From the human T2T-CHM13v2.0 reference genome, Homo sapiens: DNA of 64,000 nucleotides. The stretch lies in the NCBI RefSeq assembly GCF_009914755.1, contig NC_060944.1. One strand, written 5' to 3'. This document shows positions 35,865 through 64,000 of this stretch, one piece after another. Position numbers and translations under genes: made by a program. Each line of letters begins with the position of its first letter. The stretch's first letter is position 1. Under the pieces are notes generated by a model. That model saw nothing but the letters and a program-made list of their open reading frames with translations. It was not told where the DNA came from and ran no database searches.

Positions 35865-35898
<34 letters not shown>
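35865..35898. repeat. (GT)n microsatellite
   Basis: Directly visible. Confidence 0.95.
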
Positions 35899-35899
<1 letters not shown>

Positions 35900-40960: not shown

Positions 40961-40966
40961 GAACAC

Positions 40967-45420: not shown

Positions 45421-45586
45421 TCCTTGTAATAGTGGTATTAGCGATACTACTAAAGTATTATTATGTAAAGTAGTATTAGCAATGCTACTAAAGTATTCAT
45501 ATTTAAAATTGTGATTATTAAAGTGAGAAAAATGTATGAAAGGAATACTACAAATTAAGGTAATCCATTAAAAATAAGGAGCTGGA

Positions 45587-45890
<304 letters not shown>

Positions 45891-46469
45891 AAGGAGCTGG
45901 AGGAGGCCCACCTTAATGTACGCCAAAATAGTTCTGCTTGTTGAAGGCCTGGAGTTCCCTGCAACAGGTGGGGAAGGGGATTAGCCTGGGGAAATAATGC
46001 CTGGGGCAAGTTGAAGCAGAGTTAGGGAAGATCCAGGTCCCTCTGCTGAGGGACAGTTTGGAGGACAGAGCCTGACCCTCCATGAAGAGAGACTCTCAAG
46101 GTCTCTTTTAGCTTTAACATTGGCTAAGTGTGATTCTATGACTCAACCAGTCTGCCCTAATTCCTCAGTGTGGGCAGGACATGAAAGACCCCCCACCAGT
46201 ATCTCAGTGAGTTTGTGTGGCCCTCACCTTGGCAGCCATACACAGACACTTCCCAGAGTCTCAGTGATGACGATTCTCTCTAAAGGGAACCCAAGCCTTA
46301 ACCAAATACCACCTCTCCATCTTCCTGCTGGGGCCTTTCAAGTCAGCCTAGAGGGAGTTTTCCAGAGCAGGTGGCTTCCTGAGTGGCCAAGATCATGTGG
46401 GCAGGATAGGTTCTCTTCTCGCTGGGTCTTTCCCCACTAAGCTGGTGTCCCAGGCACCTCTCTCAGTTT

Positions 46470-46800
46470 GGAAATCAGATTCTTTATGGTTTATTTTTGA
46501 CACCAGATCATCTCTGCCCAAGTTTCATCAATTTGTCACTGTTTTTATTGTCAGCAATTGCCCATAACTGTAGCACATTTAAAATGTCATTGATCTTGGA
46601 TTAACAGTGTCATAATCGGACAGTAATAGGTGTAGCCAGAACAGGAAGCCCAGGCCCTGAGATTGATGGCGCACAGCACACCAATTATATTCTGTCCATG
46701 TAAGTGATAAAAGAGTATGTAGGAGGCATTCAATAGATAAATTAGATATCGCTCCCAATTATGTCCTTTATTTTATGGAGTCATATGCTGCCCTTAGAAC
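46470..46800. promoter_or_regulatory. HOX/PBX/MEIS motif cluster (candidate conserved enhancer)
   Basis: TTTATGG x2, several TGTCA/TGACA, CATCAAT and AGATTGATGG (46660-46669) in non-repetitive AT-rich sequence. Confidence 0.6.
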
Positions 46801-48499
46801 TTTTTTTCTTCATTTGGCTTGTAAAGGGGAATTACCTGACCCCCCTAAAGACTGGGACTGCCTCCCCTGCCTGTCCCAACTTGGGTTCTACCCTGATCCC
46901 TTCTGACTGGCTCATAGTCTTTCACCTGGGCTTTCTCTGGGACTCACCTAGGAGTTCCCCAGTGTGGTAGGTCCACAGGTGTAAAGGGAAGGAGGCAGAG
47001 GTGCTTCACCATTTGGGAAGGAGTTGGGTCAGGCCTTTGGGAAGGACTAGGAAGTCTGGCAATGTCTTTAATGTGACACTGCCCCAATAAATGAGACCTG
47101 GAGAGGGGCTGGAAAATGGGTAAAAATCCTCCAGTCCAGACAACAGAGCCTTCAAATTAGGACAACGAGTAATTGGCTATGAATGGGGAGGAAGAGGATG
47201 GTAAAAAGGTTTTCAGTCCTGAAGAAGTGAATTCATCCACCCCTCTACCTCCACTCCAGACTGGGTGGGGCCAATTCAAGCCCTTCCTCGGAAGAACTCC
47301 CGGAATCTTCCACATCCCCATTCTGATCCATATCAGATGACTTCCTCAGCTCAAGTCCTAGCTCTGCCACTGTGGTAGGGACATAATGTCAGCTTTCCTG
47401 GGGGAGGAAGAGGGCTCCTGTTTGCGAAAAAGCCCCAAGAATGGTTCATTTCCAAGAAGAGAGCTCACCTGAGGCAGGGAAGTGCCTGGCCAAGGAATAG
47501 AGGTACAGTGAAGGCATAACTTTATTAGAGGCCTGGTTTATAAGCATCTTAAACTCTGAGAACAGCCTTGACCTGGTCCAGACCCCTGTTTCCCCATCCC
47601 CCAAAGCCAGCAGGAAACACAGCAGAGGCCGAGACACCAAGTAGTAAACAGTGATCTAGGTCCATTGATCGAGCTTTCAAAGAGAGAGTGTCCATGGGTT
47701 GGGCTGCTCCCCATTGCCCTGTTGCCATCTCAATGTTATAAATAATTCTGGCACTAAGTGTCCTGTTACACGGAGAGGAAGTAGATCTTATGGCGTGAAA
47801 CCTGAGAATATGGGTCATGGGAAGAGGGGTGACTGGGGGCAGGGGTAGAGATGGGGAGCGATCACCCCAAGGCTCCTCAACTATACCCCTAGGCTGGTGA
47901 TAGATGAATTTCTGGAGCAGAGGATGGCATTTCAAGTGAAATGGTTATAGGAAATGAGTGTGATTTAAACAACGTCTTGGGTGATAAGCACCAGCCAGCT
48001 GGGGGGAGATGGCAGGCTAGAAGTGGAGGAATCAAAAGCCCAGAGGCCCCCAGTGTTAAGTAGCTGTCTGAAGCTCCGCTCAAACACACGCAAAAGCTTT
48101 GGTCTCAATATGTTTTTAAGAGCTGGTTATGATTTCCTTGAGGGCTGCTCAGATTAAGACTAGAGTGGAGCCCCCAGCTAAGCACCTCAATAACTGTCCA
48201 TCACATCCTCTTTAGAAACAGCAGTCTCTTCCCCTTGGCTCAGGGACCCTGTAACTGGGGAGGGCTGTGAAGCTGCATGGCTTGTCAGCCTGTTCCCAGA
48301 CAGCATGGTGCCTGTCTGTCCTTTGCCTGGGGTCCTGCCCCAGATCCCAGGAACAGAGATTGAGCCCCACCCACAGAGATCTCTCAGTATTCAAGAAGAG
48401 AGAAAACATACAACCTAGAAAAGAAGAGAGGAAGCAAAGAGAGCAAAAGGATGGAAGCCAAGGAAGAGGAAACTGCCACCAAATCCAGAATTTGGGCCT

Positions 48500-49500
48500 T
48501 TCTCACCACATGCACTGCTGCCATCCTGGTCCAAGCCACACATTTCTCACTTGGATTAGTGCAATGACCTTTCAACAAGTCTCCCTGCATCTTCCCTTGG
48601 CCCCCTGTGATCTATTCTCAACACAAAACACAAAAAGACTATTTAAAAACTGAAGTCCAGGCCAGGTGTAGTGGCTCACGACTGTAATCCCAGCACTTTG
48701 GGAGGCCAAGGTGGGTGGATCATGAGGTCAGGAGCTCAAGACCAGCCTGGCCAAGATGGTGAAACCCCGTCTCTACTAAAACTACAAAAATTAGCTGGGC
48801 ATGGTGGCAGGTGCCTGTAATCCCAGCTACTTGGGAGGCTGAGGCATAAGAATCACTTGAACCTGGGTGGCAGAAGTTGTAGTGAGTCAAGATTGTGGCA
48901 CTGCACTCTAGCTTGGGTGACAGGGTGAGACTGTCTCTCAAAACAAAGCAAGACCCTGAAGTCCAATCATGTCTCTCCTCTCTACTTCACTCCGAGTAAA
49001 AAGCAAAGTCCTTAAGTTGACTTACGAGGCCAAACATCATCTGTTCCCTCCTTACCTCTCTGATGCCATCTGCCCCCACTCTTGCTCACTCCCACAGACT
49101 TGCCAGGCATGTTCCTGCCTCAGGGACTTAGCACCAGCCACTCCCTCTACTTGGAATACTCTTGCCAAGATGTCTATGGGGTTTACTTCCTCTCTCACCT
49201 CTAAGTCTTTGTTCAAATACCATATTCTCAGTGAGATCTCCTTGACAACCATATTAAAAACCTCAGATTTCCCCTCCATGCTGATCTTTCTGTACGTGAT
49301 CTATTCCTTTTCTGTAACAATTATCATTTTCTAATATATGATATAATTTACTTATTTAGTAAGAATATTGTTCATTATCTGTCTCTCTCTGCTAGAATGT
49401 AAACTCCACACAGGCGGGGGGTCTTTCTCGGTTTTGATCACCAATGTATTCTAAGAACTTAGAATAGTGCTCAATAATAATTGCTTAGTGTGTAAATGCA
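48500..49500 (+). mobile_element. L2 element interrupted by Alu
   Basis: ccatcctggtccaagccac...cctgcctcagggacttagcac...ctagaatgtaaactcc...gtgctcaataa. Confidence 0.8.
48660..48950 (+). mobile_element. AluS
   Basis: Full dimer; TSD ctgaagtcca. Confidence 0.93.
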
Positions 49501-52500
49501 AAGGATGAGGTTCACCAGGGGAGGGTTTGGAGAAGAGACCAGAGGGGAGGCCATCCCAGGCTTGGGGTGAACTTGTGCCTTATCTCACAACAGGCCATGT
49601 GTGAGGATCTGAGAGTCAGAGTGTTGGACACAAGTTCATGAGTTGGGCTAGGCCATCACCTAAAATGGAGAGATTCAGTTAACAAAGAGACTAGGCTGGA
49701 TTTACCTCCCGAATCTGGTGGAGGACTTGGCTTTAGGTTGGGATTTTACCATCTTCATGACCAAAGCATACTTGGGGATAATAATGCCAAAGGGATGTGC
49801 AGGGCAAGAATGAGGTGGTTGGGAATGGAGGCACACTGGGAATTCAGGTGGGGGAGGGTAGCTGAAAGAACAGGCATGTGTCTTCTAAGTCTGGAAAAAA
49901 GATTGAGGTGGAATTAGAGGGCCTGAAGGAAAATTGTGTATGCAAGTGAGAGGAAGAGCCTGGGTCCCTGGAAGCTATCATCTCCAAGAGCATGTTCCAT
50001 CTCCACTGACGGCAGAATCAAAAGCCATGGGCTGCACCTAAAGTTGAAGGAACTAGAATGAGACATCAAGGAAGGCCTCCCAATAATGTGACAGGTGGTG
50101 GAGGGGAAGCACTGGGCCTTGTTCTCTGGAAAACTTGAGCAGGACCTAACTGGGTGCATACCTGAGCCAGGCTAACCCAGAGGGCACTGTGAGGCTCTGG
50201 GGTGGGAGTGTGGTATTAGAGCCCCTGAGAGGCTTCCTGCCTCTGCCTGGCTCCCAACTCCATCCTCTCACCTGTGAGGCTTCTGAGCTTCTAAGCATGC
50301 AGAAATGTCCTCTCTCCTGACCTCAAGTTTCTGCATCTTTTCAGAGTGGAAACTGAGAGTATGTAGTATTCCAAGGCCCCACCAGTCCAGGGGCCAAAAC
50401 ATGTGTACCACCTCTCCTCAGAATATCAGTGCTCAACTCAGTTTTGTGATGGCCTCAGGGTACAAGCCAGGAGAAGTAGAAAATACCTTTGGAGGTTATA
50501 CAATTCAGTGGTTACTGCAGTTATAATGGAGTGAGGACATGGGTGGCCTGGGAGTTCTGAGGTTCCGGGGAGACTTACTTGTCACTGTATAACTTTTGGT
50601 GCCTTTTGTGTTTTGAACCATGTACATGTATTTCCTATTCAAAAAACATAAAACTATTAAAATCAGATGAAAGCAACAACAATAATAACAACAAAGAATA
50701 GGTCTAGGGAAGTGGGAACTTGATGCCTCCAATTGCTACCCTGAAGGCAATGACCTGCCTCCTCTTGCCCATGTGTACCCTCCTCCACATCTGGCATCTC
50801 CATTCTCTAGAGGCTCAGAGAGGGGTGTGGCTGGCCTGATGTCACCCAGCATTTAAGACTAGCAAAATTCTGGGGCTTAGCTGTCCAGACTTTCAGTGTT
50901 GTCTTTCTTTTCTGATCCTCAATGACCCCGTCTACTCATTGACCTCTCCATGTTTTTGGCAGAACTTTGCATATGCTACAAATCAACCTTCAATGGGTTA
51001 TTTTTAAAACTGTGTGGTCTTAAATGCCATCTTTTCCAGGAAGTAATATATTTTCACAAAGAGAAAGAGATGACAGCTCTCCTCTCCCCCTGGTGTGGTG
51101 TCTGATGGTTCATTCTCTCCCTTCCTGCCTCCCTCCTCCCTACCACCCTCTACCACTAAAGTGGCTCTCCACTGAAACTTGGCCCTGTCTCTGATGAGAT
51201 ATGTGACCTTGAGCAAGTCATTTAACTTTTCTGTGTGTCTGTTTCTTCATCTAAAATTGAGGATCCTGACCTTCCTCCCATGGCTCTTCACTTATGCATT
51301 TGTACAGCAAGCATGTATTCTGTGCCTGGTGCTGAACCTGGCAGTAAGGATCACACAAGAGAATGTATGTGAAGTTAACACAGAGACACAGAGAGTTACG
51401 CCAAGGCCTCCTTCCTTGGATGCTCTTCTGGGCTGGGTGCTCCAACCCCCTCATCTGGCATGCACTTGGAGGAACTGTTTCACAGTCTACTCCAAACCTC
51501 TCAACTTCTAGCATTGCTTCTGGGCTGAAGCCGATATCCTGCTCTGCATGAATGGTCAGGGGGTGCAGAAATAGCCTATTTCCCAGGCTTTTTCATTTGG
51601 TTAGATCCTTAGGCACCACTTTGCCTACAAGAAGGAATAATGCTGAAATCTGTCTGTTGGTCTTTAGTCTGGAATTTTCAGTGTCCACCTCTCTTGCCCT
51701 CTGTTGGCCTTTCCCTGGGAGTTGGGCTGGAACAAGGGGTAGGAAACGGATTCTATTCGTGTCCTCGCTCTGCTCATTTCTCTCCTTTCCTGAATCCCAT
51801 GCATCCATGGAGATTGGTACAGTGGCAAAGATTCTGGGATTGGAAACTCACATTTGTCTCCCTCCAAATGTAAGCTGGACTGTGGAGGAAAGATGGTCCC
51901 TTCTTTAAAATGAACACCACCATCTCAGAGTATACAGGAGCTTGCTTCAGGCAGAGGAGGCAGAGCTGCCTTCCAGAGCTCTTGGCAGGAAGCTGTCCCC
52001 ACTCCCTGCCTGACCACCGGGGATTGGGTGAGCATCACTGGGAGGGAGGGGTGTTTGTAGAAAAAACGTGCTGCTTCAGCCCTGGTCATTGCTGATGGAC
52101 CATGACAGCAAGGAAGGTCAAGTCCAGACTAAGGAGGTACTTCTGGTTGTCAGGGACTGGGTTTAAGGTGAGAGGTTGGTTGGAACTACTCAGACATGGT
52201 CTTCCCAGAGCAAGGAGGAAGGATGAGATGATCTGGGAGTTGTGAAGGACTCAGGGGTTCCATGATGTTGCAGAGCTGGCAGTGACTGGGAGGATGCCAG
52301 GGAGATGTCAGTTCACCCATGTCTAGAGCAGAAACCCCATGGTCAGAGACCAGGTATCTGGAACCCCAACATTCCCAGCATAATGCCTCGCACAAGGCTA
52401 ACTGGAGACTGAGGAAGACAAGTCCTTCCCTGGAAGATGGTGACAACACTGTGCTCACAGAAGGACAGCTACTTTAAAGCCCCAGCAAGAAAATGGTCCC

Positions 52501-52879
52501 AGACTGTGGGACCTGGAAGTACTTCTTCATGTCCAGCCTCAATCCTCCTTACCACAGCTCGACTGGATCTCAGTGCAACCTGTGGGATTTGTCCATGCCC
52601 AGAGGAGAAACCCAGCAAGGAATATGGACTTTGCTTTTAGGCCTACCCTGTTGGCTGTGGGAGATAGAACAAGTTGGCCAAACTGTCAAGTACCTGTCTC
52701 CACACCTGGGGAGTCCCCAGGAAAGTGGAGAGGGAAGATCTTCCAGGGAACGGCCATCCTCCATGAGGAGATAAGCAGAACAGCAGAGGGAAAGGAAGGT
52801 TCAGTGGCCAGGAGAGGTGGGGCTCAGGGAGTCCCTCCTGGCTGGGGGTGAGGGAGCTTCCTGGATGCTCAGCCTCTCC

Positions 52880-52992
52880 AAGCCCCTGAGGAAAGACTGT
52901 AGCTTCTGGAGGGCAGGAGCTGATCCTGCATCATCCAGGCAGTCCAGTGCCCAGCACACAGCAGATGCTCAAAACACATGGGTTGAATGAAT
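52880..52992 (+). mobile_element. L2 3' end
   Basis: agactgtagcttctggagggcagg...cagtgcccagcacacagcagatgctcaa...gttgaatgaatga. Confidence 0.75.
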
Positions 52993-53479
52993 GAGCCTGT
53001 GGTCAAGAGCCTGCCCAGCCAGCAGGTGGAGTGGGTCTTTGGAGAAGGGATTCCCCTCTCTGGGCCTCCATTTGTTCATTTGTAGAATGAGGGGCTGCAG
53101 TAGATTGTCTCTAAGGTTTTGTCGGCCCCTGACGATCTGTGGTTTCCTGTTTCCCTGCTCTCTCGTCAATTCCTTGCCAATTCTCTTTCCCTCTACAGCT
53201 TCTCTTTTCCTTTCCCTTTAAGTCTTTTTCTTCCACTAACCCCCAATCTCTGCACCCCCATTTTCAGTCTCTCCCCTCCCCAGACAATTTATCTGGCTTT
53301 CCCCTTTACAGGTATTTCTTCCTCTCTGCTTCTGGTAACTGCCCCCATCACTACTCTTCCCTGATGCCTTCAGTGTTCTGCGCCCCCTGCCCCCCAAAAG
53401 TCTCCCATTCTAGTGCCCCTTTCATCCACCTTAGATCCCAGAGGCGGGAGATTGGAAGAAAAGGAGGAGGGTCCTAAAG

Positions 53480-53850
53480 CAGCCTCTCCCCTGCCCCTGC
53501 AGTGCCCCACAGCGATGTCCTCGTCCCCCCGCACCACCCTCCTCCCCGCCACGCCTCTCCCTCAGCAGCCGGTGCCGCACTGAGCCCTCGCCCCACGCTA
53601 ATGCGATCTGGAGAGACCCGGGCGGGGCGGGCGGCGGGCAGTCTGGCCCAGCGTCCAGGGCGGCGCTGATGGATGGTCCCCTGACAGTAATCGCAGAATG
53701 AGGACGCGCCAGCGACGCTCTTGCCCGAGGCCCCGCTGTTTGGCGAGCCCGGGAGTCCCTCCCTCCGCAGCGTCTGCCTTCCAGGCGCTCTCAACTCACT
53801 CGGCTTTGCGGGAGGCTCAAAGCCTCAGGTTAGGGCAGAGGTGCGGGCTT
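53480..53850. promoter_or_regulatory. CpG island with GC boxes and a PBX-HOX1 + MEIS/PREP module
   Basis: GGGCGGGGCGGG ~53620; TGATGGATGG 53667-53676; TGACAG 53682-53687; TAAT 53688-53691. Confidence 0.7.
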
Positions 53851-54829
53851 CCTCTGCTCTCTCTCTCCCAAGACACTGGTTTCTGTTTGGGAGCAGATCC
53901 CTTCTTGGATCCACGCTGCTTCTGCGATTCTGAACAAGCCATCAATCTCCTGAGTCTCAGTTCTCCCTTCTGTATAATGGCCTTTAAAGCCTGGTGGAGT
54001 GTTGGGGGCACAGGAGATAATACTGGGGAAAATCACGCTCTCTCTTAAGTAGAAACCGAATTTCACTTTTAGTTTACAATGCTCAGAATAATCTGGGCCA
54101 AATGTGCGAAGCCAAGTAAGAGCTGAGTGGCTACTCACACACAGAATATATGTTTATACACATACACATAATGTTTTTAGCATACCATGACTGCTTAGAC
54201 GTCTTTAAAGAGAACACTAGCCCAGGTCCTTCTCCAGGGAGGCGACTGTCTCCAGCAGGACTTTTTCTCCCCTCTACTGAGGCCACCTACCTGTCTTAAG
54301 CCCCCAGACCCCATCCGTTCTGGGGTTCCCCTGCAATCCAGAGCCAGGCTGAGGTGGTATGCGGGAAGATCTCCCTTTGGAAAATGTTTCTGGATAATTT
54401 CCCAACTCCTTGACCATGTTCTCCCCACCTCACCCACATTCAGATAACACAGGTTCTAAGGCTCCTTCACTCCTCCACCCCCGGGGGGGATACTCCTTGG
54501 GCCTGGCCCTGTGGAGGAGCTGGGAGGTGGGATCCAGAACCAATTGCAATTCTGGACGCACACTCAACCGCCTCCTCACTCCCTTTTAACCTTTCCCTCT
54601 CGTCAGAAGCCAAATTGAGATAGTCTTGAGTTTTGATTTAATTCCCGAAATGGAGTCATAATCTGCTTAGTGTCCTTTTTCCCGAGTCCTAGATACTGAA
54701 GTGTGTGTGTCTGTCAGGGGGAGTTAAAAGAGCAGCTCTGTGACCTTTGGAGGACCCTCACACTCACTCATCTCCCAAACACCACCAAAGAGCAGGAGAC
54801 GCCATGGCCCTGAGTTGCTGGGTAGTATG

Positions 54830-55510
54830 ATGATGGTACTGACAACTCACATTTACTAGGCACTTACCACATGCCAGTACTGAGACAGGCACTATACACG
54901 CATTTCTCACTTAATTCTCACAACTACCTTTCAGGTAGGTACCATTCATATCCCCAATTTACAGATGAAGAAACTGAGGCTTAGCGAGGTTAAGCAGTTT
55001 ATGTTCCATCCTGCAGTGATTACAGACGGTCCTTGACTTATGATGCTTTGACTTACAATTTCTCAGCTTTATGATGATGTGGAAGTGATATGCATTCATT
55101 AGATACTGTACTTCTAATACTCATACAACCACTCTGTTTTTCACTTTCAGTACAGTATATTATAACATGTTGAATCTCATGTTGAATACATGAGATGAAT
55201 AAATATCTCATGTTGAATACATGAGATATTCAACACTTTATTATAAAATAGGCTTTGTGCTAGATGATCTTGCCCAACTGTAGGCTGATGAAAGTGTCCT
55301 GAGCACTTTAAGGTAAGCGAGGCTGAACTATGATGTTTGGTGGGTTAGGTGTATGAAATGCATATCCACCTTACAATATTTTCAACTTACTACAGCTTTA
55401 TCGGGACACAGCCTCATCGTAAGTCAAGGAGAGTCTATTATTAAGTGGCAGAGCCCAAATTTGAAACTACACAGTCAGACTGCAGAGCCTGTGCTCTTAA
55501 CCACTTAGTT
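54830..55510 (-). mobile_element. MIR split by MER47A
   Basis: acagatgaagaaactgaggcttagcgaggttaagca before and aagtggcagagccc...gtgctcttaaccact after the insertion. Confidence 0.8.
55023..55436 (-). mobile_element. MER47A (TcMar-Tigger MITE)
   Basis: TIRs cagacggtccttgacttatgatg / catcgtaagtcaaggagagtct; internal tttattataaaataggctttgtg...tgcccaactgtaggct. Confidence 0.88.
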
Positions 55511-56189
55511 GTGTGACACCTGGCAGGGTATTTAACTTCTACATGCCCTGTTCCCTCATTTGCAAAACACAGATAAGTAGGGATGATAAGATATTCCCTT
55601 CAAAGAATTATGTTGTGTAATTGAGCTAAGGCATTCACCATACTCGCAGTAAGCATTCAGTAGTTTAGGTGCCCTACACACTGGAGCAAGGTTGAGGAAG
55701 GGAAAGGGTACAATCCAATGGGCTATTAATTATTCATTGTTACTGTTGATAATAATAGTTATCATGCATTGAGATCCAACTGAGCATAGGCCACCCTACA
55801 AGGTAAAAATTATGTCTGTTTTACAGATGAAGAAACTGAGTTTCACATAAATTAGGTAAATTACCTAAAGCCATCCAGTTAATAAGTGACAGAACAGAGC
55901 TCTTGTTCAAACACTGGGCCCTTGACTCCAAAGCCTGCAGTTCCCAGCACCCCCAGGGTCACCAAAACCTGGCCTCTCCTGGGGGAGGTCAGGGCTGAGG
56001 CCAACAAGCCCAAGTCACACCCTTTACCACCTGGGACATGATTTTCTCCAGGTGAGCAATGTTTTCTTAAAAGAACAGGAGGACAGTAAATAATTAACTA
56101 AGACAGTTTCTCCCTCCCTGAAGCCAAGGTAGAACCTCCCCCCTACAGCCAACCCCCACTCTCCTCACTCCTGTTTCCTCTGGGCTCAA

Positions 56190-56400
56190 GTTTGTGGCCA
56201 TTAAATAGAAGAGGAGAAAGTTTGAACCAGGCATGAAATATTTATCAGGTAATTACAATATGCAGATTCTGTTCCTAGGGGTGATTTATCTTTTTGGAAA
56301 TATAGGAAAAGGTCCTGGAAACTTGTATCCTAATTGCTTGGCCTATTATTGTAGCAACCAGGTAGAAACTCCATTTACTATGTAATTACAAATTTTCCCA
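56190..56400. promoter_or_regulatory. Homeodomain motif cluster (candidate enhancer)
   Basis: GGCCATTAAA 56196, GTAATTAC 56249, TGATTTAT 56282, TGTAATTACA 56381. Confidence 0.45.
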
Positions 56401-56744
56401 CTACTGGAGGTATCTGCCTCTGCTTCTATCACTGGTGGTCTGGGGACCATATGCTTTTCTGATAAGAGATGAGCCTCTTAGAGGTCAATTTGTCAATTCC
56501 TCTGTCTCCTCTTTGGGTGGCCCCTTTGTAAATTCTAATAGCTATAGGAAATGAAAAAGGTGAGAGTCTCTGAAATTCTGGGATCTCAAGAGAAGCTAAT
56601 TCTAAGTGAAAACCTCCCCGACTGAAGCAGTGCCACTGGTGAGGGGATGTCCAAGGTTGAGAAGCAGCTCTCAGCTGAGTATCCCTCCCCTCCCTTGCTC
56701 TGGCAGAAGTGTCAGCCCTCCCCTTATCTCTTGTATCATTTCCT

Positions 56745-57240
56745 AGGGCCTGCAACTCAACCTCTGGCTACACATTATCAACCTGGGGAGTTTTAAAAAT
56801 CCAGATGCCCAGGCCCTACTACAGGCCAACCAAATTGGAATCTCTGGAGGTGGGACCCAGGCATCAGTATTTTAAAAAACTTGTGGCCGGGCATGGTGGC
56901 TCACACCTGTAATCCCAGCACGTTGGGAGGCCAAGGTGGGCAGATTACCTGAGGTGAGGAGTTCGAGACCAGCCTGGCAAACATGGTGAAACCCCGTCTC
57001 TATTAAAAATACAAAAATTAGCTGGGCATGGTGGCAAGCACCTGTAATCCCAGCTACTCGGGAGGCTGAGGCAGGGATAATTGCTTGAACCCAGGAGGCA
57101 GAGGTTGTAGTGAGCCGAGATGTGCCACCGCACTCTAGCCTGGGCGACAAGAGCAAGACACCATCTCAAAAACAAAAATGAACAAACAAAAAAACTCGCT
57201 GGGGGTTCCAATGTGCAGCGAAAGTTGAGACCCTCTAGAG
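56745..57240. mobile_element. MER5-family element interrupted by Alu
   Basis: ctcaacctctggctacacatta...tggaatctctggaggtgggacccaggcatcagtatttt / ttccaatgtgcagcgaaagttgagacc. Confidence 0.8.
56885..57194 (+). mobile_element. AluS
   Basis: Full dimer; TSD-like aaaaaact. Confidence 0.93.
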
Positions 57241-57394
57241 CTAATAGAAGAGTATCACTGCCTGGTAAATGGGCCCTGCTTATCTGCAAGACTGTGTAAT
57301 TTTTATCCCTCCCTCTCTGGTGCTGGATGAGGCAATTCCTTCACTTTTTAGAACCTGAAGAACATCTCTCTTTCTTCACAAGAAGCTTGTAACA

Positions 57395-57610
57395 CAATAA
57401 CTACCACTTATCGAGCCCCTGCTGAATGCTTGGATCTATGCAAATAAAATTTAATCTGATCTACAGAACAACTCTATAAGGTCAGTGGGTATGTCTATTT
57501 TATGGATGGCTCAGAGAGGTTAAGTAATTTGCCCAAGTTTGTACAACTAGCAAGTGTCAGATCAGGGACTTGAATCACAAACCCATGCTTTTAACCCCTG
57601 TGGTACACTG
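57395..57610 (-). mobile_element. MIR
   Basis: ggctcagagaggttaagtaatttgcccaag. Confidence 0.8.
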
Positions 57611-60326
57611 CCTCTCACTTTCTCAAGGTCAGAAGGGAAGGGCTTCAGGTCCACCATATGAAGTGCCTACGGAATGTCTTGGGGAAGGAAAGACGAGAGA
57701 AGCAAGGAGAAGTATAGAGAAGCAGACAAGGGCTACACATGCATAGGGCATGGAGGGCAGAATGGTGGCTGGGAAAGACTGAAGAGGGTTTGTGGGGTTA
57801 AGAGGAGTTACCTGAAGGAGGGTGTGGTAAGCCAACAAGTGCATGGGAAGGGGGCAGTCGCTATGGAGATAGCTGGGGAGTGGGGGAACGGGGTCCAGGA
57901 GTGGGCGCCGGCAGTTGGAACATCCAGAACAGTGAGCAGTGCCCATCGTGGACTGGGTGGTTGGGGAGTGGGAGGGACCTCGTGTCAGAGGAGGGGTCTT
58001 TGTGAGCGTGCAGCAGTGAGGAATGCTCCGCCATGAATACTAAGGGCAAGAAGAGAAAGAGCCAGAGGGGGCTGGGTGATGTTTAGCTGCTGGGGTGATT
58101 AATGGGGGTGAACGGAGGGTGAAACTCAAGCCCTTCCAACGAAGATGGTGGGGAATGGTTGTCCAAGAACAACAGTGCACTGTTTCATGGAGAAAGCCAA
58201 TGTCCAGGGGAGGGGTGGCTGAGAAAGATGCTAGGCACAGTTGCTCCTTCCCTTTTTTCCCAAGTTCTCTTGATTTACCACCAAACAGTAAATTAAACTA
58301 TATTAGCCAGTTCCAGGGGACCCTCTGGATGGGCTTCCTACCTGCCTCCTGGCTTTGGAGAGACCAAGGAATGTTGGCATGGCTTGGAGAAAGAGTGAGT
58401 GAGGTCTGGGCTGAAAGCTGAGATGACTCCATGGACCACCCCCATCGTGGGGCACAAAATGGTAATGTGTTGGCAAGAGCCACTGGCTCCCTCTGGACCA
58501 GACAGGCACTGAGAGATACATGGGGGTTGGGACTTCAGGTGTCCTGTAGAAAGTGGTAGTGTTCTTAGAGCAGTTTTTAGAGAAGCCCCTTGGCCTCAGG
58601 GAGGGACACAGGGCTCCTTTTCTGTGAGAGAGAGAGAGTTGGGGGAACAAGGAGAGAGGGCTTCCCATGGCTCTGGTTTTAGGGTGTTGACCTGGGTTTG
58701 AAGAATGGAGATAAACCTTGTGGGAAATAACAGGTTTAAGCCACTCTCCCCTCATTTCCTACTGCTGTCTCTTCCTCTAGGTACAGCTGTTGGGAGCTGC
58801 ATCTCCTACCCTCAGTCTCCCTGTCTGTGGTTCCAGAGGGAAGAAGAGGGGAAAAAAAGGATGAAGAGAATTGTTTCAGTGCTGGGGGAGGTGAGCTTAC
58901 AGCAGGGATTTAGATGGGCATTACCTCATGGGATAGGAGCAATTTTCTCCCTCTCCAGGCCTCTCACAGATGTGAAACAACCGGCAGATCTGACTTTCCC
59001 ACCCCTAACCATCAGAGGGGATGATATGACTTGAAACCTGTGCTTCTCGATTGAGAGGCTGGTGGGGGAAAGAGAGGTCAGGAAAAGGGTCCAGATGTGT
59101 GTTCAGGGGTCCCCAGAGAGTTGAGGGAAACTAGCATCTCCTTAGGGTAAGGAAGACAAAATGACCATTCCTGATCCCAGATTGCTTAGATACTGTGCCT
59201 GGGAGTCCTCCCACCTCACCTTAATTCCTGTCTCCACACACAGCTTGGCCAAGTTTCTTCCCCTGTTGGAGTCTCACTCCCAATCCGCTACTCTATCTCT
59301 CCAGGAGCCTACAAAGCACTTTGAAATCCGAAGTTTGTGGGAAGTGGCTGTATTGCACAAATACTCTGAGGTGCAACATTACTTGACTGGTAATGAGGCA
59401 ACCATCCCACCTAGGGCAGAGTTCAAGGACTGCCTTCAAGAGGGGCTGGCCTCAGTTTGCCTGTTACAGAAGCCAAGGGCTAACAGAGGCTCCCCTCTGC
59501 CTCACAAAGAAGGAGATAAATGGGTCCACTGGAGAGCAACGGTCACAATCAAGTCTTAATGATGAATTAATAATTCATAATTACCCCAGACTTGCAGATA
59601 AGCACAAGCCTACTGGAATTATTTCCCAGGGAGGAACACAGTCAGAAAGGGTGAGAAGGGGACTTCAGTACAGACATTACTTCCAGAGGCCGTTAAGTTC
59701 ATTCCTCTGCTTCCCAACCAGAACCCGGAAGAGATTCATTAGCTTCCTTGGCTGATTCCTCCTAACAGCTACCACCCCCTGAGCTTCTAAACAGTGCCAT
59801 ATTGCCCCTCTGTTCTTCATAAGGCCAGAGGACCATTCCTACCAAAGTGACCTCAGAGCCTGGACTCTGGATTTCTGGCGTCTCTCTGTTCTCTGCTCCC
59901 CATTCTGCTATTTACATACGAGGTCCCCTGTAGGAGGGCCTGGTGCTAGGTGTCCCGGCGAGATGTGGACATCTTTCTGGCTCTTCTCCTTCTCTTATCT
60001 AAGTCCTCACATGGTGGGAAAATACCTCTCTAACGCTATGTAGAAAGAGAAGCAGGGAGTGCCCCTTCTAGCGTGGATGCCTTTGGTTCCCAGATCTGGA
60101 TTTGAGGGGCTGGCTCTATCTCTTAAGACATTTACCTAGTATTGATAATGGAGATGGGGCCTAAATAGGGCTAGGGAGGCACACCCAACTCCCGACCCAG
60201 CTCTCTGCTGTTCCCCTTCCCAGTGCACACAATCCCAATTCCCACTCCAGAAATTTTTTTAAAAACATATCTTAAAAGAAACCTCGAAGAGCCAAGCAGA
60301 CCCTCAGCTTCAAGGTATCTCCTCAT

Positions 60327-60376
60327 TCTCTCTCTCTCTCGTTTGCTCTCTCTCTCTCTCTCTCTCTGTCTCTCTG
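60327..60376. repeat. Interrupted (CT)n microsatellite
   Basis: Directly visible. Confidence 0.9.
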
Positions 60377-60727
60377 AATCTACAAAGAAGGAGTGAGTTT
60401 TGTCTCTCCAAGTACTCAGAGCCTTAGATCACAAAGGGGCCTTAGATCCTGGTCTTTAGGAGATCTTTGACCACCACCTCTGCTGTGGCACGACCTTTGT
60501 CAAAATGCTAGAAAGAAGAGAGACTGGCTCTTAGACCAAGGGAATTTGGGATTTGAAAGGTCTTCCAATTACAATTCTATAGATTTCCTTCCCATTAGCC
60601 TTTTCATGTGCATCAAATGTAAATGGCAGGCTAAACCTACAGGATGAAGAGAGTTGAAAGACTGCTGTCTAAAAATGCCCTTTTCCAAATCTGTGGGTGC
60701 AGAAGCATATTGAAAAGCAGCTACCCA

Positions 60728-60898
60728 GCCTGGCGGTGTGGCACATGCCTGCAGTCTCACATACTTAAGAGGCTAAGGTGGGAGGACTACTTGAGCCCAG
60801 GAGTTTGAGGCTTCAGTAAACTATGATGGTGCCACAACAGTCCAGCCTGGGAAACAGAGCTGGACCCCATTTCCAAAAAAAAAAAAAAAAAAAAAAAA
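60728..60898 (+). mobile_element. FRAM / free right Alu monomer
   Basis: Single right arm with A tail; TSD aaaag(c/t)ag(c/t)taccca. Confidence 0.85.
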
Positions 60899-61316
60899 GT
60901 AGTTACCCAGGTAAGGTGGATGATCAAGTACACCCAGTGAGAAGCACACAAACCTTACCCTTTGCCCAACTCTGCCCCTTACCTGGCCCATTTCTGGTCT
61001 CTAGAGGAGGATCAGTTAGGGGGTGTGACCCAAGTTACCCAGATAATTAACTGTGGAAGCACGATTTTTTTTTCACTCCTTTGGCCTCTAAATATGAGAG
61101 ATCTTTACATCTCTTGCCTATCTCCCTCTTATTCTCTAACCTCTCTCCAACATGCACGCAAATCCTAGCAACAAAAAATCCTAAATATAGGAAGACAAAC
61201 CTTCCTGACCTACCATTTTGGCCCACCTGCAACCCCTGTCCCCCGCACACCCACCCCCCAATTTTTTCCTCACCTGAGCCTCTGCTCTTCGCTTCTAAAA
61301 TAAAAAAAAAAGAAGG

Positions 61317-63146
61317 CTCCCTCTCCCTCTCCCCCTCCCCCTCCCTCTCCCCCTCCCTCTCCCCCTCCCCCTCCCTCTCCCTCTCCCCACGGTCTCCCTC
61401 TCCCTCTCTTTCCACAGTCTCCCTCTGATGCCGAGCCGAAGCTGGACTATACTGCTGCCATCTCGGCTCACTGCAACCTCCCTGCCTGATTCTCCTGCCT
61501 CAGCCTGCCGAGTGCCTGCGATTGCAGGCGAGCGCTGCCATGCCTGACTGGTTTTCGTATTTTTTTGGTGGAGACGGTGTTTCGCTGTGTTGGCCAGGCT
61601 GGTCTCCAGCTCCTAACCGCGAGTGATCCGCCAGCCTCGGCCTCCCGAGGTGCCGGGATTGCAGACGGAGTCTGGTTCACTCAGTGCTCAATGGTGCCCA
61701 GGCTGGAGTGCAGTGGCGTGATCTCGGCTCGCTACAACCTCCACCTCCCAGCCGCCTGCCTTGGCCTCCCAAAGTGCCAAGATTGCAGCCTCTGCCTGGC
61801 CGCCACCCCGTCTGGGAAGTGAGGAGTCCCTCTGCCTGGCTGCCCAGTCTGGAAAGTGAGGAGCATCTCTGCTCGGCCGTCATCCCATCTAGGAAGTGAG
61901 GAGCGCCTCTTCCCGGCCACCATCCCATCTAGGAAGTGAGGAGTGTCTCTGCCCGGCCGCCCATCGTCTGAGATATGGGGAGCGCCTCTGCCCCGCCGCC
62001 CCGTCTGGGATGTGAGGAGCGCCTCTGCCCGGCCGCGACCCCATCTGGGAGGTGAGGAGCATCTCTGCCTGGCCGCCCTGTCTGAGAAGTGAGGAGACCC
62101 TCCGCCCGGCAGCTGCCCCATCTGAGAAGTGAGGAGCCCCTCCGCCCGGCAGCCGCCCTGTCTGGGACGTGAGGAGCGTCTCCGCCCGGCACCCCGTCCG
62201 GGAGGGAGGTGGGGGTCAGCCCCCGCCAGGCCAGCCACCCCATCCGGGAGGGAGGTGGGGGTCGGCCACCGCCCGGCCAGCCGCCCGGTCCGGGAGGGAG
62301 GTGGGGGGTCAGCCCCCGCCCGGCCAGCCGCCCCATCCGGGAGGGAGGTGGGGGTCGGCCACCGCCCGGCCAGCCTGGTCCGGGAGGGAGGTGGGGGGGT
62401 CAGCCCCCGCCCGGCCAGCCGCCCCATCTGGGAGGTGAGGGGCGCCTCTGCCCGGCCGCCCCTACTGGGAAGTGAGGAGCCCCTCTGCCCGGCCACCACC
62501 CCGTCTGGGAAGTGTACCCAGAAGCTCATTGAGAACGGGCCATGATGACAATGGCAGTTTTGTGGAATAGAAAAGGGGGAAAGCTGGGGAAAAGATTGAG
62601 AAATCGGATGGTTGCTGTGTCTGTGTAGAAAGAAGTAGACATGGGAAACTTTTCATTTTGTTCTGTACTAAGAAAAGTTCTTCTGCCTTGGGATCCTGTT
62701 GATCTATGACCTTACCCCCAACCTTGTGCTCTCTGAAACATGTGCTGTGTCCACTCAGGGTTAAATGGATTAAGGGTGGTGCAAGATGTGCTTTGTTAAA
62801 CGGATGCTTGAAGGCAACATGCTCGTTAAGAGTCATCACCACTCCTTAATCTCAAGTACCCAGGGACACAAACACTGCGGAAGGCCGCAGGGTCCTCTGC
62901 CTAGGAAAACCAGAGACCTTTGTTCACTTGTTTATCTGCTGACCTTCCCTCCACTATTGTCCTATGACCCTGCCAAATCCCCCTCTGCGAGAAACACCCA
63001 AGAATGATCAATAAAACAAACAAACAAAAAACAAAAACAAACAAACAAACAAAAAGAGTAGAGTTGTCAGGTCAAACATAGGACCCTCAGTCAAATGTGA
63101 ATTTCAGATAAACAGTGAATAATTTTTTTGGCAAAAAAAAAAAAAA
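61317..63146 (+). mobile_element. Full-length SVA retrotransposon (SVA_D-like) with 3' transduction
   Basis: (CCCTCT)n ~61317-61388, Alu-like domain, GC-rich VNTR ~61790-62515, SINE-R, AATAAA 63010-63015, (AAAC)n tail to 63055, extra segment and second A tail to 63146; TSD ending aagaagg at 61316 and 63157. Confidence 0.96.
63059..63130. mobile_element. Half MER53 (hAT MITE) within the SVA 3'-transduced segment
   Basis: tagagttgtcag...cagtcaaatgtgaatttcagataaacagtgaataatttttt resembles the recalled MER53 arm tagggttgccag...ttgaatttcagataaacaacgaataattttt. Confidence 0.72.
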
Positions 63147-63204
63147 GAAGAAGAAGGAATTTTCAATAGTCCCACTTGTCAAGGGAAGACCATCTTTTAA
63201 CCTT

Positions 63205-63560
63205 CAACAGCAGCGAAAGCCGTGTGAACTCTTGGTGAACCAAGATTGAAGTCATAAATCACGCATACAAAGGCGGCTGAGGAGGCTGGCGCGGGCTGCT
63301 GCACCTTTAACGCTTTCTGGGGCTGACAGGCGGCGGCCCAGCTAAAGTTCATAGCGCCCGGGGAGAGTCGCCTCCGCCTCCCCTCCCGCCCCCGCCTCCC
63401 CTCCCCCAGGCCGGCCCCGCCCCCGGCCCCGGACCAGTCCGCCGCAAGGCCGCCTGAGCTGCGAGCTGAGGAGGCCCCTTGGCTGTTCCTGCAAAGGGCC
63501 AGGGGGCGCATTTTCTCTCCTGCCAGCCAGCTCCAGCCTGGTCGTTTATTCCTGGACTTC
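63205..63560. promoter_or_regulatory. CpG island with RARE, PBX-HOX, MEIS and GC-box motifs
   Basis: TCATAAATCA 63252-63261 (rc TGATTTATGA), TGACAG 63324-63329, C-rich GC boxes 63370-63430. Confidence 0.72.
63225..63241 (-). promoter_or_regulatory. DR5 retinoic acid response element GGTTCA-ccaag-AGTTCA
   Basis: + strand TGAACT cttgg TGAACC; both half-sites match RGKTCA perfectly with a 5-nt spacer. Confidence 0.8.
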
Positions 63561-64000
63561 CCTCATCCCCCACCCCCACAGCCTGCTGTATGTAAATAGG
63601 GAAATAGATCTACACGGACACAATAATTTAGCTTGTTTGGTCTTTGGCATTTTCTACAAGACCCCAAGAGATGGACTTTCCTCTCCCCTTCCTCCTTTTA
63701 GAAATGGCATCCTTCATCACTGTCTATGCATGCCCAATTATCCAGATCCCCGGGGCTCCAATAGGGTCTGAGTCATTGGAACCAGGAACACCTGGCTGAA
63801 ACATGCCACATAATTAGATTTTCTTTTTCTTTACCTTTTCTTTCTTATTTTTATAAGAGGGCCGGAATTAGTCTCTTCGACTGGGGCGGAGTAGCTGGGA
63901 TGTGGGAAAGGAACATCTTCATACAACTTCCAGCTTTCAGCCCCTTGGAGAGATCTCCAAGTTCCCCCGAGCCGCCAGGACTTCCTTTCCTCGATCTCTC

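What the first reader, a model, noticed from the sequence alone, without database searches (positions are those of the whole stretch)
53660..63265. Possible regulatory ghost of a lost Hox paralog-group-1 gene (HoxC1): ARE-like module and 3' DR5 RARE with no gene between
Seen: a CpG island with TGATGGATGG followed 5 bp later by TGACAG and TAAT, and ~9.5 kb downstream (~7.7 kb without the SVA) a perfect DR5 GGTTCAccaagAGTTCA. Known: TGATGGATGG is repeat 3 of the Hoxb1 autoregulatory element, which works with PREP/MEIS sites. Hoxa1 and Hoxb1 carry GGTTCA-n5-AGTTCA DR5 elements several kb 3' of the gene, and mammals lack HoxC1. Inference: this order and spacing is the PG1 cis-regulatory architecture surviving loss of the coding gene, possibly serving lncRNAs or long-range HOXC control.
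Basis: partly seen in the sequence, partly recalled or inferred. Interest (0 to 1): 0.85.

Follow-up and report, generated by a model that had tools for sequence, protein, structure and literature searches.

The report
Duplicated HOXC-flank retinoic acid element
This stretch of chromosome 20 is a recent copy of the DNA just beyond the HOXC gene cluster on chromosome 12, and it carried along an ancient retinoic-acid/HOX control element that belongs between the fourth and third HOX genes, not to a lost first gene.

Summary
The HoxC1 reading does not hold.

- **Location.** The window is pericentromeric chr20. Bases 18129-64000 (running on to 67632) are an inverted ~48-kb segmental duplicate, 94-96.5% identical, of chr12:54,043,920-54,091,673. 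That block lies 23-71 kb 3' of the HOXC4 homeobox. Five further copies or part-copies lie on chr9, and a 2.7-kb partial copy lies at chr20:31.21 Mb.
- **The DR5.** It sits 12 nt from TGATTTATG. The same composite occurs once in each of the four human HOX clusters, always on the gene strand and 3' of the group-4 homeobox (5' of HOXA3/B3/D3). It is therefore the HOXC counterpart of a group-4/group-3 intergenic PBX/HOX + retinoic acid element, not a Hoxa1/Hoxb1-type 3' element.
- **Order.** On chr12 the DR5 lies nearer HOXC4 than the ARE-like site, the reverse of the group-1 layout.
- **The ARE-like site.** It has one PBX-HOX repeat where HOXB1 has three. No paralogue was found at the stringency tested.
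- **A homeobox fossil.** A degenerate, group-3-like homeobox sits on chr12 47 kb further 3', outside the duplicon. A HOXC1 site would lie beyond it.
- **Untested.** Whether the chr20 copy still works.

The parts
18129..64000 (-). Part of a ~48-kb segmental duplicon that continues to window coordinate 67632. It is copied, in inverted orientation, from chr12:54,091,673-54,043,920, the HOXC 3' flank.
   Evidence: megablast of the window plus 40 kb of right flank against 120 kb of chr12 gave three collinear blocks at 96.5, 96.1 and 94.2% identity. The genome search probes agree.
53501..53900 (.). CpG-rich block 1, with no annotated transcription start
   Evidence: GC 0.68, CpG o/e 0.73, 33 CpG
53667..53691 (+). 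ARE-like composite TGATGGATGG-tcccc-TGACAG-TAAT: one PBX-HOX-type 10-mer, a MEIS/PREP-type hexamer and a TAAT core
   Evidence: It is identical in the chr12 parent and in four chr9 copies; 6 of 6 genome hits at up to 3 mismatches belong to this family.
56163..61742 (+). lncRNA LOC105372586 (predicted model). Its last exon ends inside the SVA.
   Evidence: Hub annotation; not tested here
61317..63132 (+). chr20-specific SVA insertion with ~72-77 bp of 3'-transduced sequence. Window 63062-63133 is 99% identical to chr11:76,220,905-76,220,976. The insertion is flanked by an A-rich ~15-bp target-site duplication (61302-61316, and within 63133-63157).
   Evidence: The chr12 and chr9 copies have the empty site.
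63225..63261 (-). PBX/HOX + DR5 composite TGATTTATGACTTCAATCTTGGTTCAccaagAGTTCA (TGATTTAT at 63254-63261, DR5 at 63225-63241). It is a copy of the HOXC member of the group-4/group-3 intergenic element found in all four HOX clusters.
63180..63380 (.). RefSeq 'silencer' functional element covering the composite
   Evidence: Hub annotation only. The assay behind it was not checked.
63201..63500 (.). CpG-rich block 2 with GC-box repeats. It abuts the composite and lies ~0.55 kb upstream of the lncRNA LOC107985433 start (64045).
   Evidence: hub annotation

Best explanation
Window 18129-64000 is a hominid-age pericentromeric segmental duplicate of the chr12 sequence lying 23-71 kb 3' of HOXC4, and both motifs came with it.

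The DR5 is half of a composite element: a PBX/HOX-type site (TGATTTATG), 12 nt of spacer ending AATCTT, then GGTTCA-N5-AGTTCA. This is the HOXC ohnologue of an element present once in each human HOX cluster, on the gene strand, between the group-4 and group-3 genes.

Inferred mechanism at the chr12 parent:
- RAR/RXR binds the DR5. It represses through NCoR/SMRT without ligand and activates with retinoic acid.
- A PBX-HOX dimer on TGATTTATG gives auto- or cross-regulatory input.
- The likely targets are HOXC4/C5 and the sense-strand non-coding transcripts of the HOXC4-SMUG1 interval.
- The element outlived its 3' neighbour HOXC3, of which a degenerate homeobox relic remains 47 kb further 3'.

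In the chr20 copy the half-sites and the PBX/HOX site are intact; only a CpG in the spacer has changed to CpA. The copy is therefore an ectopic, possibly still competent, RAR/PBX-HOX binding module beside a CpG-island lncRNA promoter.

The ARE-like site in CpG island 1 is most likely an incidental or promoter-associated single PBX-HOX/MEIS match. It is not a group-1 autoregulatory element.

Shown here: the duplication, the parentage, the four-cluster paralogy, the orientation and the relic. Inferred: factor binding, retinoic acid response and target genes.
For: Duplication and parentage:
- Three collinear blocks match chr12 at 94-96.5% identity, with further copies on chr9.
- K2P distance over 3.4 kb is 0.025 (chr20 vs chr12), 0.026-0.029 (either vs chr9) and 0.007-0.014 among the chr9 copies.
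- The nine HOXC homeoboxes lie on chr12 (+), the last at 54,020,444-614.
- Both motifs are in the chr12 copy. The DR5 is in all 7 copies examined and the ARE-like 10-mer in the 6 that span it.

Four-cluster paralogy:
- The pattern TGATNNAT-N0-30-RGTTCA-N5-RGTTCA has 26 genome hits (control 10). Seven are this family and 16 are unrelated.
- The other three are HOXD chr2:176,654,028-071 (+), HOXA chr7:27,249,428-471 (-) and HOXB chr17:49,419,010-055 (-).
- Those three carry TGATTTATG on the gene strand, 13-21 kb 3' of the group-4 homeobox and 4.4-5.6 kb 5' of the group-3 homeobox.
- The five-way alignment has invariant TGATTTATG.C and GGTTCAnnnAGAGTTCACAnG.
- My arithmetic: about 20 independent hits over roughly 0.5 Mb of HOX territory in 3.1 Gb gives an expectation of about 0.003, against 4 observed.

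Not the group-1 element: the HOXA1 and HOXB1 DR5 flanks share a 41-nt block (E 1e-4). It is absent from the chr12 flank, from 120 kb of chr12 and from the window.

Homeobox relic at chr12:54,095,197-352 (+):
- Pfam Homeodomain E 0.006.
- All 39 PDB sequences matched at E<=10 are homeodomain proteins.
- It is the second-best hit after HOXC4 for 8 of 9 homeobox DNA queries: HOXB3 1e-7, HOXD3 4e-7, HOXA3 5e-5.
- With 67-aa homeodomain queries, only group-3 ones reach it (E 0.001).
- It is unique in the genome.

Literature:
- Passages of PMC3707753 say the amniote ancestor had already lost HoxC1, and that mammals later lost HoxC3.
- Passages of PMC4510006 report late retinoic-acid-induced sense-strand transcripts between Hoxc4 and Smug1 in mouse ES cells.
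- The hub annotation places a RefSeq silencer over the composite.
Against: - No non-human genome was available, so orthology in species that keep hoxc3 or hoxc1 and sequence constraint (phyloP) are untested.
- The composite lies 46.8 kb from the relic, against 4.4-5.6 kb from the group-3 homeobox in HOXA, HOXB and HOXD. Either the interval expanded or the relic is not in its original relation to the element.
- The relic scores below Pfam's gathering cut-off (16.9 vs 22.9 bits). Its N-terminal half shows some group-1-like residues (F, KQL, QV). No other Hox-related Pfam family was found in 24 downstream ORFs.
- Passages of PMC4510006 state that HoxC shows very little RAR occupancy in mouse ES cells during the first 24 h of retinoic acid.
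- I could not confirm in print that this element is the described '3' of Hox4' RARE. The exact strings gave 0 papers, and Mainguy et al. 2003 was seen only as a reference-list entry.
- Activity of the chr20 copy is untested, and the assay behind the RefSeq silencer was not verified.
Confidence: 0.85

Rival explanations
1. The two motifs are the surviving 5' autoregulatory element and 3' DR5 RARE of a lost HOXC1 gene, bracketing its former position.
For: - The parent block does lie 3' of HOXC4.
- The half-sites are identical to those of the HOXA1 and HOXB1 3' DR5s, and the chr12 spacer CCGAG differs by one base from HOXA1's CCGAA.
- The 7.76-kb spacing resembles the 8.85 kb between the HOXB1 R3 site and its DR5.
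- A MEIS-type TGACAG follows the 10-mer.
Against: - The DR5 flanks match the group-4/group-3 element of all four clusters, not the group-1 RARE.
- The HOXA1/HOXB1 41-nt companion block is absent.
- In HOXC orientation the DR5 is proximal and the ARE-like site distal, and the two lie on opposite strands.
- There is one PBX-HOX repeat, not three.
- A group-3-like homeobox relic lies 39-47 kb distal to both motifs, so HOXC1 should have been further out still.
- HoxC1 was already lost in the amniote ancestor (PMC3707753 passages).
- The window itself is on chr20.
Confidence: 0.03
2. Both motifs are chance matches with no regulatory meaning, in a neutrally drifting pericentromeric duplicate.
For: - The 10-mer appears in 32% of shuffles and a generic DR5 in 21.5%.
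- There are 157 ARE-like composites and 359 exact DR5s genome-wide, and the DR5 count is not above its control.
- At 2.5-2.9% divergence, retention in all copies is uninformative.
- No paralogue of the ARE-like 25-mer was found.
Against: For the DR5 this is excluded by the four-cluster paralogy, with conserved flanks, strand and position. It remains the leading reading for the ARE-like site alone. In this reading the chr20 copy is functionless even though its chr12 source is functional.
Confidence: 0.1
3. CpG island 1, with its PBX-HOX/MEIS site, is a leftover of the HOXC3 promoter or of a group-3 auto- or cross-regulatory element. Such elements have been described for Hoxa3 (recalled, not checked). 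It now serves as an lncRNA promoter.
For: It lies 7.8 kb 3' of the group-4/3 composite. That is the side where the group-3 gene sits in HOXA, HOXB and HOXD. It is a CpG island without an annotated start.
Against: - No sequence relative in HOXA or HOXD among the first 100 of the 157 composite hits (those listed; chr17 was not reached), nor at up to 3 mismatches. These tests are insensitive.
- The motif is on the strand opposite to the cluster.
- The relic homeobox is 39 kb away.
- Group-3 exon 1 and promoter sequences could not be fetched for comparison.
Confidence: 0.07

Closest known systems
Conserved DR5 retinoic acid response elements at fixed positions in vertebrate Hox clusters, 3' of the group-4 genes (Mainguy et al. 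2003 Trends Genet, seen only as a reference entry; Hoxb4/Hoxd4/Hoxa4 3' enhancers recalled)
   Same: A DR5 with GGTTCA/AGTTCA half-sites, on the gene strand, between the group-4 and group-3 homeoboxes, present in all four human clusters with an adjacent TGATTTATG PBX/HOX-type site.
   Different: The window copy is ectopic: chr20 pericentromere, no HOX gene nearby, inverted, spacer CpG lost. In HOXC the 3' neighbour gene is gone, and the element sits 27.7 kb from HOXC4, against 13-21 kb in the other clusters. Identity with the published elements is recalled, not verified.
Hoxa1 / Hoxb1 3' DR5 RARE enhancers
   Same: Identical half-sites. The chr12 spacer differs from HOXA1's by one base.
   Different: It lacks the 41-nt block shared by HOXA1 and HOXB1 and carries TGATTTATG instead. 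It lies 5' of a group-3-like relic, not 3' of a group-1 gene.
Hoxb1 autoregulatory element (b1-ARE)
   Same: It contains the exact R3 10-mer TGATGGATGG with a MEIS/PREP-type hexamer close by.
   Different: The human HOXB1 element has three PBX-HOX repeats within about 60 bp, on the gene strand, 1.4 kb 5' of the homeobox. Here there is a single repeat, on the opposite strand to the cluster, in a CpG island, with no flank similarity.
Pericentromeric segmental duplications of human chr9, chr20 and other chromosomes
   Same: A euchromatic donor segment copied to pericentromeres and then spread: chr20 once plus a 2.7-kb partial copy at 31.21 Mb, and chr9 five times, at 94-98% identity.
   Different: The donor here is the HOXC flank, so the cargo includes a pan-HOX regulatory element.

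Membership tests
Hoxb1-type autoregulatory element (group-1 ARE) | Cluster of three PBX-HOX bipartite repeats within ~60-150 bp | tested here: not met
   Human HOXB1 shows AGATGGATGG, TGATTGAAGT and TGATGGATGG within ~60 bp. The window has one TGATGGAT in 64 kb and no other TGATNNAT within ±150 bp (read).
Hoxb1-type autoregulatory element (group-1 ARE) | Adjacent PREP/MEIS site | tested here: met
   TGACAG lies 5 nt 3' of the 10-mer. However, there are 157 such composites genome-wide.
Hoxb1-type autoregulatory element (group-1 ARE) | Lies 5' of a group-1 Hox gene, on the gene strand | tested here: not met
   On chr12 it is on the minus strand, 35.5 kb 3' of the HOXC4 homeobox and 39 kb 5' of a group-3-like relic. 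No group-1 coding remnant was found.
Hoxb1-type autoregulatory element (group-1 ARE) | Rhombomere-4 reporter activity; PBX-HOX-MEIS binding | not testable with these tools
   Needs ChIP and transgenic assays
Hoxa1/Hoxb1 3' DR5 RARE | DR5 GGTTCA-N5-AGTTCA | tested here: met
Hoxa1/Hoxb1 3' DR5 RARE | 3-8 kb 3' of a group-1 homeobox, on the gene strand | tested here: not met
   HOXA1 +3.4 kb and HOXB1 +7.5 kb. The chr12 DR5 lies between HOXC4 and a group-3-like relic.
Hoxa1/Hoxb1 3' DR5 RARE | Companion conserved block next to the DR5 (the 41 nt shared by HOXA1 and HOXB1) | tested here: not met
   HOXA1 and HOXB1 match each other at E 1e-4. The best match in chr12 (120 kb) and the window is 12-14 nt at E>=0.27.
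Group-4/group-3 intergenic PBX/HOX + DR5 composite of HOX clusters | TGATTTATG 12-21 nt 5' of the DR5 on the same strand; DR5 followed by CAnG | tested here: met
   It is invariant in HOXA, HOXB, HOXC, HOXD and the window copy.
Group-4/group-3 intergenic PBX/HOX + DR5 composite of HOX clusters | On the gene strand, 3' of the group-4 homeobox and 5' of the group-3 homeobox | tested here: met
   Met for the chr12 parent (27.7 kb 3' of HOXC4, 46.8 kb 5' of the relic). The chr20 copy is ectopic.
Group-4/group-3 intergenic PBX/HOX + DR5 composite of HOX clusters | RAR/RXR binding and retinoic acid response | not testable with these tools
   Only indirect evidence: a RefSeq silencer annotation over the copy (hub) and late retinoic-acid-induced transcripts in the mouse Hoxc4-Smug1 interval (PMC4510006 passages).
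Segmental duplication | At least 1 kb at 90% identity or more to another locus | tested here: met
   ~48 kb at 94-96.5% identity to chr12
SVA retrotransposon insertion | CCCTCT hexamers, Alu-like part, VNTR, SINE-R, A-tail, target-site duplication, empty site in paralogues | tested here: met
Homeodomain (PF00046), for the chr12 relic | Profile match at or above the gathering score | tested here: inconclusive
   16.9 bits against a cut-off of 22.9, E 0.006, helix 3 only. Support comes from DNA matches to HOXB3 and HOXD3 (1e-7, 4e-7) and from the correct spacing of the other half in a shifted frame.

The most novel reading that the evidence does not exclude
A hominid-era duplication seeded seven extra copies or part-copies of the HOXC flank into the chr20 and chr9 pericentromeres (six carry the DR5 composite, five the ARE-like site). 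The cargo includes a pan-vertebrate PBX/HOX + retinoic acid element whose binding sites are intact in every copy. These copies may act as live RAR/PBX-HOX-responsive switches, silencing without ligand, that wire young lncRNAs (LOC107985433, LINC01597, LOC105372586) into retinoic acid/HOX signalling. Separately, chr12 keeps an unannotated fossil of the HOXC3 homeobox that marks where the cluster once continued.
Probability: 0.2. Interest if true: 0.6.

Novelty: new member of a known kind. Interest (0 to 1): 0.4.

Why it matters
- The result corrects an attractive but wrong 'HoxC1 ghost' reading. It replaces it with a testable one: the DR5 belongs to a four-cluster, pre-duplication HOX element that outlived the loss of HOXC3.
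- It shows that pericentromeric duplication has multiplied a developmental control element in hominids. This matters for ChIP and methylation mapping, where multi-mapping at 94-98% identity is a risk. It also matters for asking whether such cargo gives new lncRNAs a retinoic acid or HOX response.
- If the candidate HOXC3 homeobox fossil is confirmed across mammals, it would fix the former extent of the HOXC cluster and help date the loss.

Tried and rejected
- Six-frame Pfam scan of 52-64 kb by raw reference failed because of stop codons. It was replaced by tblastn with HOX exon ORFs and homeodomains. The first tblastn run was swamped by Alu translations.
- The 14-kb genome probe was swamped by SVA and Alu copies. 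It was replaced by repeat-free probes and a local megablast.
- My early note called window 50001-52672 'a different duplicon'. That was wrong: it is an extra 98% partial copy at chr20:31.21 Mb.
- Rfam gave only a Y_RNA; there are no HOX-cluster RNA families in the window.
- A weak homeodomain-like hit at window 10640-10714 (E 0.043) is a K/R-rich chance match.
- The group-1 reading of the relic (F, KQL, QV residues) was set aside after DNA and 67-aa searches favoured group 3.
- There is no further Hox-related Pfam family 3' of the relic (0 of 24 ORFs).
- The bacterial promoter/terminator scan is irrelevant to a human sequence.
- Paper searches for the exact DR5 strings of HOXC, HOXA/B and HOXD found 0 papers; only the RARB/HOXA1 string appears, in 13 papers.
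- No paper in the library mentioned a human HOXC3 pseudogene (searches; passages read).
- Coordinates of the LINC01597 candidate imprinting regions (GRCh38; PMC13618840 passages) could not be mapped onto the window.

Full report
**1. Observation**

The window holds one TGATGGATGG, at 53667-53676 (+). It is followed by tcccc, TGACAG and TAAT and sits inside a 400-bp CpG-rich block. It holds one GGTTCAccaagAGTTCA, at 63225-63241 on the minus strand.

An SVA separates the two motifs. The hexamer array is at 61317-61408 and the VNTR at 61788-62514, followed by a SINE-R part and an A-rich tail. The insertion also carries about 72-77 bp of 3'-transduced sequence, 72 bp of it 99% identical to chr11:76,220,905-976. 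It ends in a second A-run and is flanked by a ~15-bp A-rich target-site duplication.

Chance within the window:
- The 10-mer appears in 32% of 200 shuffles.
- A generic RGKTCA DR5 appears in 21.5%, and the exact half-site pair in 1%.
- PBX-HOX-type and MEIS-type words are not enriched.

So the description is accurate. The predicted lncRNA LOC105372586 does lie between the motifs.

**2. Where the sequence comes from**

The hub places the window on chr20. Searching the window's own assembly showed that the CpG island has a 96% copy on chr12:54,055,788-54,056,381 (minus strand) and four copies on chr9. Repeat-free probes extended this collinearly.

A local megablast of the window plus 40 kb of right flank against 120 kb of chr12 gave three blocks:
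- window 18129-55227 to chr12:54,091,673-54,054,561 (96.5%)
- window 55174-61315 to chr12:54,054,583-54,048,442 (96.1%)
- window 63133-67632 to chr12:54,048,461-54,043,920 (94.2%)

The SVA is absent from chr12 and chr9.

A Pfam homeodomain scan of the genome places nine homeoboxes on chr12 (+), from 53,910,548 to 54,020,444-614. By their order these are HOXC13 to HOXC4; the names are inferred. The parent block therefore lies 23-71 kb 3' of HOXC4.

K2P distances over 3.4 kb are 0.025 (chr20 vs chr12), 0.026-0.029 (either vs chr9) and 0.007-0.014 among the chr9 copies. My inference, using recalled benchmarks, is a hominid-age event, roughly between the gorilla and orangutan splits.

**3. Are the motifs inherited?**

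Yes. chr12 carries TGATGGATGG at 54,056,113 (-) and GGTTCAccGagAGTTCA at 54,048,351 (+). The chr9 copies carry both motifs wherever they span them. All daughter copies share CpG to CpA in the spacer.

**4. Test against real group-1 loci in the same genome**

- HOXB1: TGATGGATGG lies 1,373 bp 5' of the homeobox centre, and GGTTCAtagagAGTTCA lies 7,474 bp 3'. Both are on the gene strand.
- HOXA1: GGTTCAccgaaAGTTCA lies 3,425 bp 3'.

The chr12 pair fails the layout. In HOXC orientation the order is HOXC4, then the DR5 (+), then the ARE-like site (-). This is the reverse order, with the motifs on opposite strands.

The human HOXB1 element has three PBX-HOX repeats within about 60 bp; here there is one. 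The HOXA1 and HOXB1 DR5 flanks share a 41-nt block (E 1e-4). It is missing next to the chr12 DR5 and anywhere in 120 kb of chr12 or the window.

**5. What the DR5 really is**

Twelve nucleotides 5' of the DR5, on the same strand, is TGATTTATG, a PBX/HOX-type site. The pattern TGATNNAT-N0-30-RGTTCA-N5-RGTTCA has 26 genome matches against 10 for the control.

- Seven matches are this duplicon family: chr12, chr20 and chr9 x5.
- Sixteen are unrelated.
- Three lie in the other HOX clusters, all with TGATTTATG and GGTTCA..AGTTCA on the gene strand:

| Cluster | Position | From group-4 homeobox | To group-3 homeobox |
|---|---|---|---|
| HOXD | chr2:176,654,028-071 | 13.1 kb 3' of HOXD4 | 5.6 kb 5' of HOXD3 |
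| HOXA | chr7:27,249,428-471 | 15.9 kb 3' of HOXA4 | 4.9 kb 5' of HOXA3 |
| HOXB | chr17:49,419,010-055 | 21.4 kb 3' of HOXB4 | 4.4 kb 5' of HOXB3 |

The five-way alignment shows invariant TGATTTATG.C and GGTTCAnnnAGAGTTCACAnG. HOXB and HOXC also share ATGACTyCAATCTyGGTTCA.

Four hits in about 0.5 Mb of HOX territory are roughly a thousand-fold more than expected from about 20 independent hits in 3.1 Gb (my arithmetic). The window's DR5 is therefore a copy of the HOXC ohnologue of a group-4/group-3 intergenic PBX/HOX + DR5 element.

I recall such position-conserved RAREs from Mainguy et al. 2003 and from work on the Hoxb4 and Hoxd4 3' enhancers. I saw only the reference entry. The exact strings occur in no searchable paper.

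**6. A homeobox fossil on chr12, outside the window**

tblastn with group-1 exon ORFs found, besides HOXC4, a weak hit at chr12:54,095,1xx-3xx on the plus strand. The evidence that it is a real relic:
- One frame reads ALRLYDMQVQIWFQKACMKYKR. A shifted frame reads SKQLSELEFFLQPYL.
- The YL-to-IWFQ distance is 62 nt, against 60 expected. There is a 6-nt deletion after ELE and an in-frame TGA.
- Pfam Homeodomain scores E 0.006, 16.9 bits, below the cut-off.
- All 39 PDB sequences matched at E<=10 are homeodomain proteins.
- It is unique in the genome.
- With homeobox DNA queries it is the second-best hit after HOXC4 for 8 of 9 queries. The best are HOXB3 (84% over 44 nt, 1e-7), HOXD3 (4e-7) and HOXA3 (5e-5).
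- With 67-aa homeodomain queries, only the three group-3 queries reach it (E 0.001).
- Its 3' end, ATGAAGTACAAGA--GGCCAG, mirrors the group-3 MKYKKDQ codons.

Passages of PMC3707753 state that HoxC1 was lost before the amniote ancestor and that mammals later lost HoxC3. A HOXC3 fossil is therefore the more plausible reading.

The relic lies 3.5 kb beyond the distal end of the duplicon, 46.8 kb 3' of the composite and 39 kb 3' of the ARE-like site. Any HOXC1 site would be further out and not in this window.

Caveats:
- The score is sub-threshold.
- The N-terminal half has some group-1-like residues.
- No other Hox-related Pfam family was found downstream.
- The distance is large compared with the other clusters.
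- I found no mention of such a relic in the library (searches; passages read).

**7. The ARE-like site**

The 25-mer TGATGGATGGTCCCCTGACAGTAAT has six genome hits at up to 3 mismatches, and all six are the parent and its copies. Among the first 100 of the 157 TGATGGATGG-N0-30-TGACAG matches (the ones listed), none lies in HOXA or HOXD; chr17 was not reached.

These tests are insensitive. The RARE core itself would fail the 3-mismatch test. I could not fetch group-3 upstream sequence to test further. The safest reading is a single PBX-HOX/MEIS match in a CpG-island promoter-like region. A relic of HOXC3 upstream regulation is not excluded.

**8. Function**

- Shown: the sites are intact in the chr20 copy.
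- Annotated (hub): a RefSeq silencer at 63180-63380 covers the composite. The assay behind it was not verified. ReSE and RefSeq Functional Elements papers were seen only in a search listing.
- Literature, in favour: passages of PMC4510006 report late retinoic-acid-induced sense-strand transcripts between Hoxc4 and Smug1 in mouse ES cells.
- Literature, against: the same paper reports very little RAR occupancy over HoxC in the first 24 h.
- Inferred: RAR/RXR on the DR5 represses without ligand and activates with it, with PBX-HOX input on TGATTTATG. At chr12 this would serve HOXC4/5 and the flank transcripts. At chr20 it would be an ectopic module next to a CpG island 0.55 kb upstream of LOC107985433.

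**9. Verdict**

- The HoxC1/group-1 interpretation is not supported.
- The kernel idea, that an ancient HOX retinoic acid element persists beside a lost HOXC gene, holds for the DR5 at the parent locus, with the lost neighbour probably HOXC3.
- The window feature is an ordinary segmental duplicate carrying that element.
- Interest is moderate: a mis-assigned but real pan-HOX element, multiplied in hominid pericentromeres, plus a candidate HOXC3 fossil that needs cross-species confirmation.

Noticed in passing
L031:5197-5352 (= T2T chr12:54,095,197-54,095,352, + strand), outside the window: A degenerate, frameshifted homeobox relic, closest to paralogue group 3. It lies 74.6 kb 3' of the HOXC4 homeobox on the cluster strand and is a candidate fossil of the HOXC3 gene that mammals lost. 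I found no mention of it in the paper library.
   Followed up: partly
window 61317-63157: The SVA insertion is specific to the chr20 copy. It carries ~72-77 bp of 3' transduction (72 bp 99% identical to chr11:76,220,905-976) and has an A-rich ~15-bp target-site duplication. The last exon of LOC105372586 (61418-61742) lies in its Alu-like part.
   Followed up: partly
window 44920-45031 (+): Y_RNA match (47.4 bits, gathering score 38) inside the chr12-derived duplicon. It is presumably a Y RNA pseudogene copied with the block.
   Followed up: no
window 22777-30725: The FAM242A exons annotated at 22777-22955, 29210-29509 and 30090-30725 lie inside the chr12-derived duplicon (18129 onward). The 3' part of this lncRNA is therefore built from former HOXC-flank sequence.
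   Followed up: no
window 36801-37750: The largest CpG-rich block of the window (950 bp, 63 CpG, o/e 0.70), also inside the duplicon. It has no annotated start.
   Followed up: no
window 50001-52672: A further 98% partial copy of this stretch lies at chr20:31,211,222-31,213,894, about 0.7 Mb distal.
   Followed up: no
beyond the window end (LINC01597, window coordinates 67480-75111): A 2026 paper (PMC13618840, passages read) lists candidate imprinting control regions or CoRSIVs at or near LINC01597 (GRCh38 chr20:30,283,622-30,289,510). I could not map these onto T2T window coordinates. LINC01597 begins at the proximal edge of the chr12-derived duplicon.
   Followed up: partly
L026 (T2T chr7:27,229,439, gene strand): HOXA1 carries an exact TGATGGATGG 1.1 kb 3' of its homeobox centre, so the 10-mer is not confined to the 5' side of group-1 genes.
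   Followed up: no
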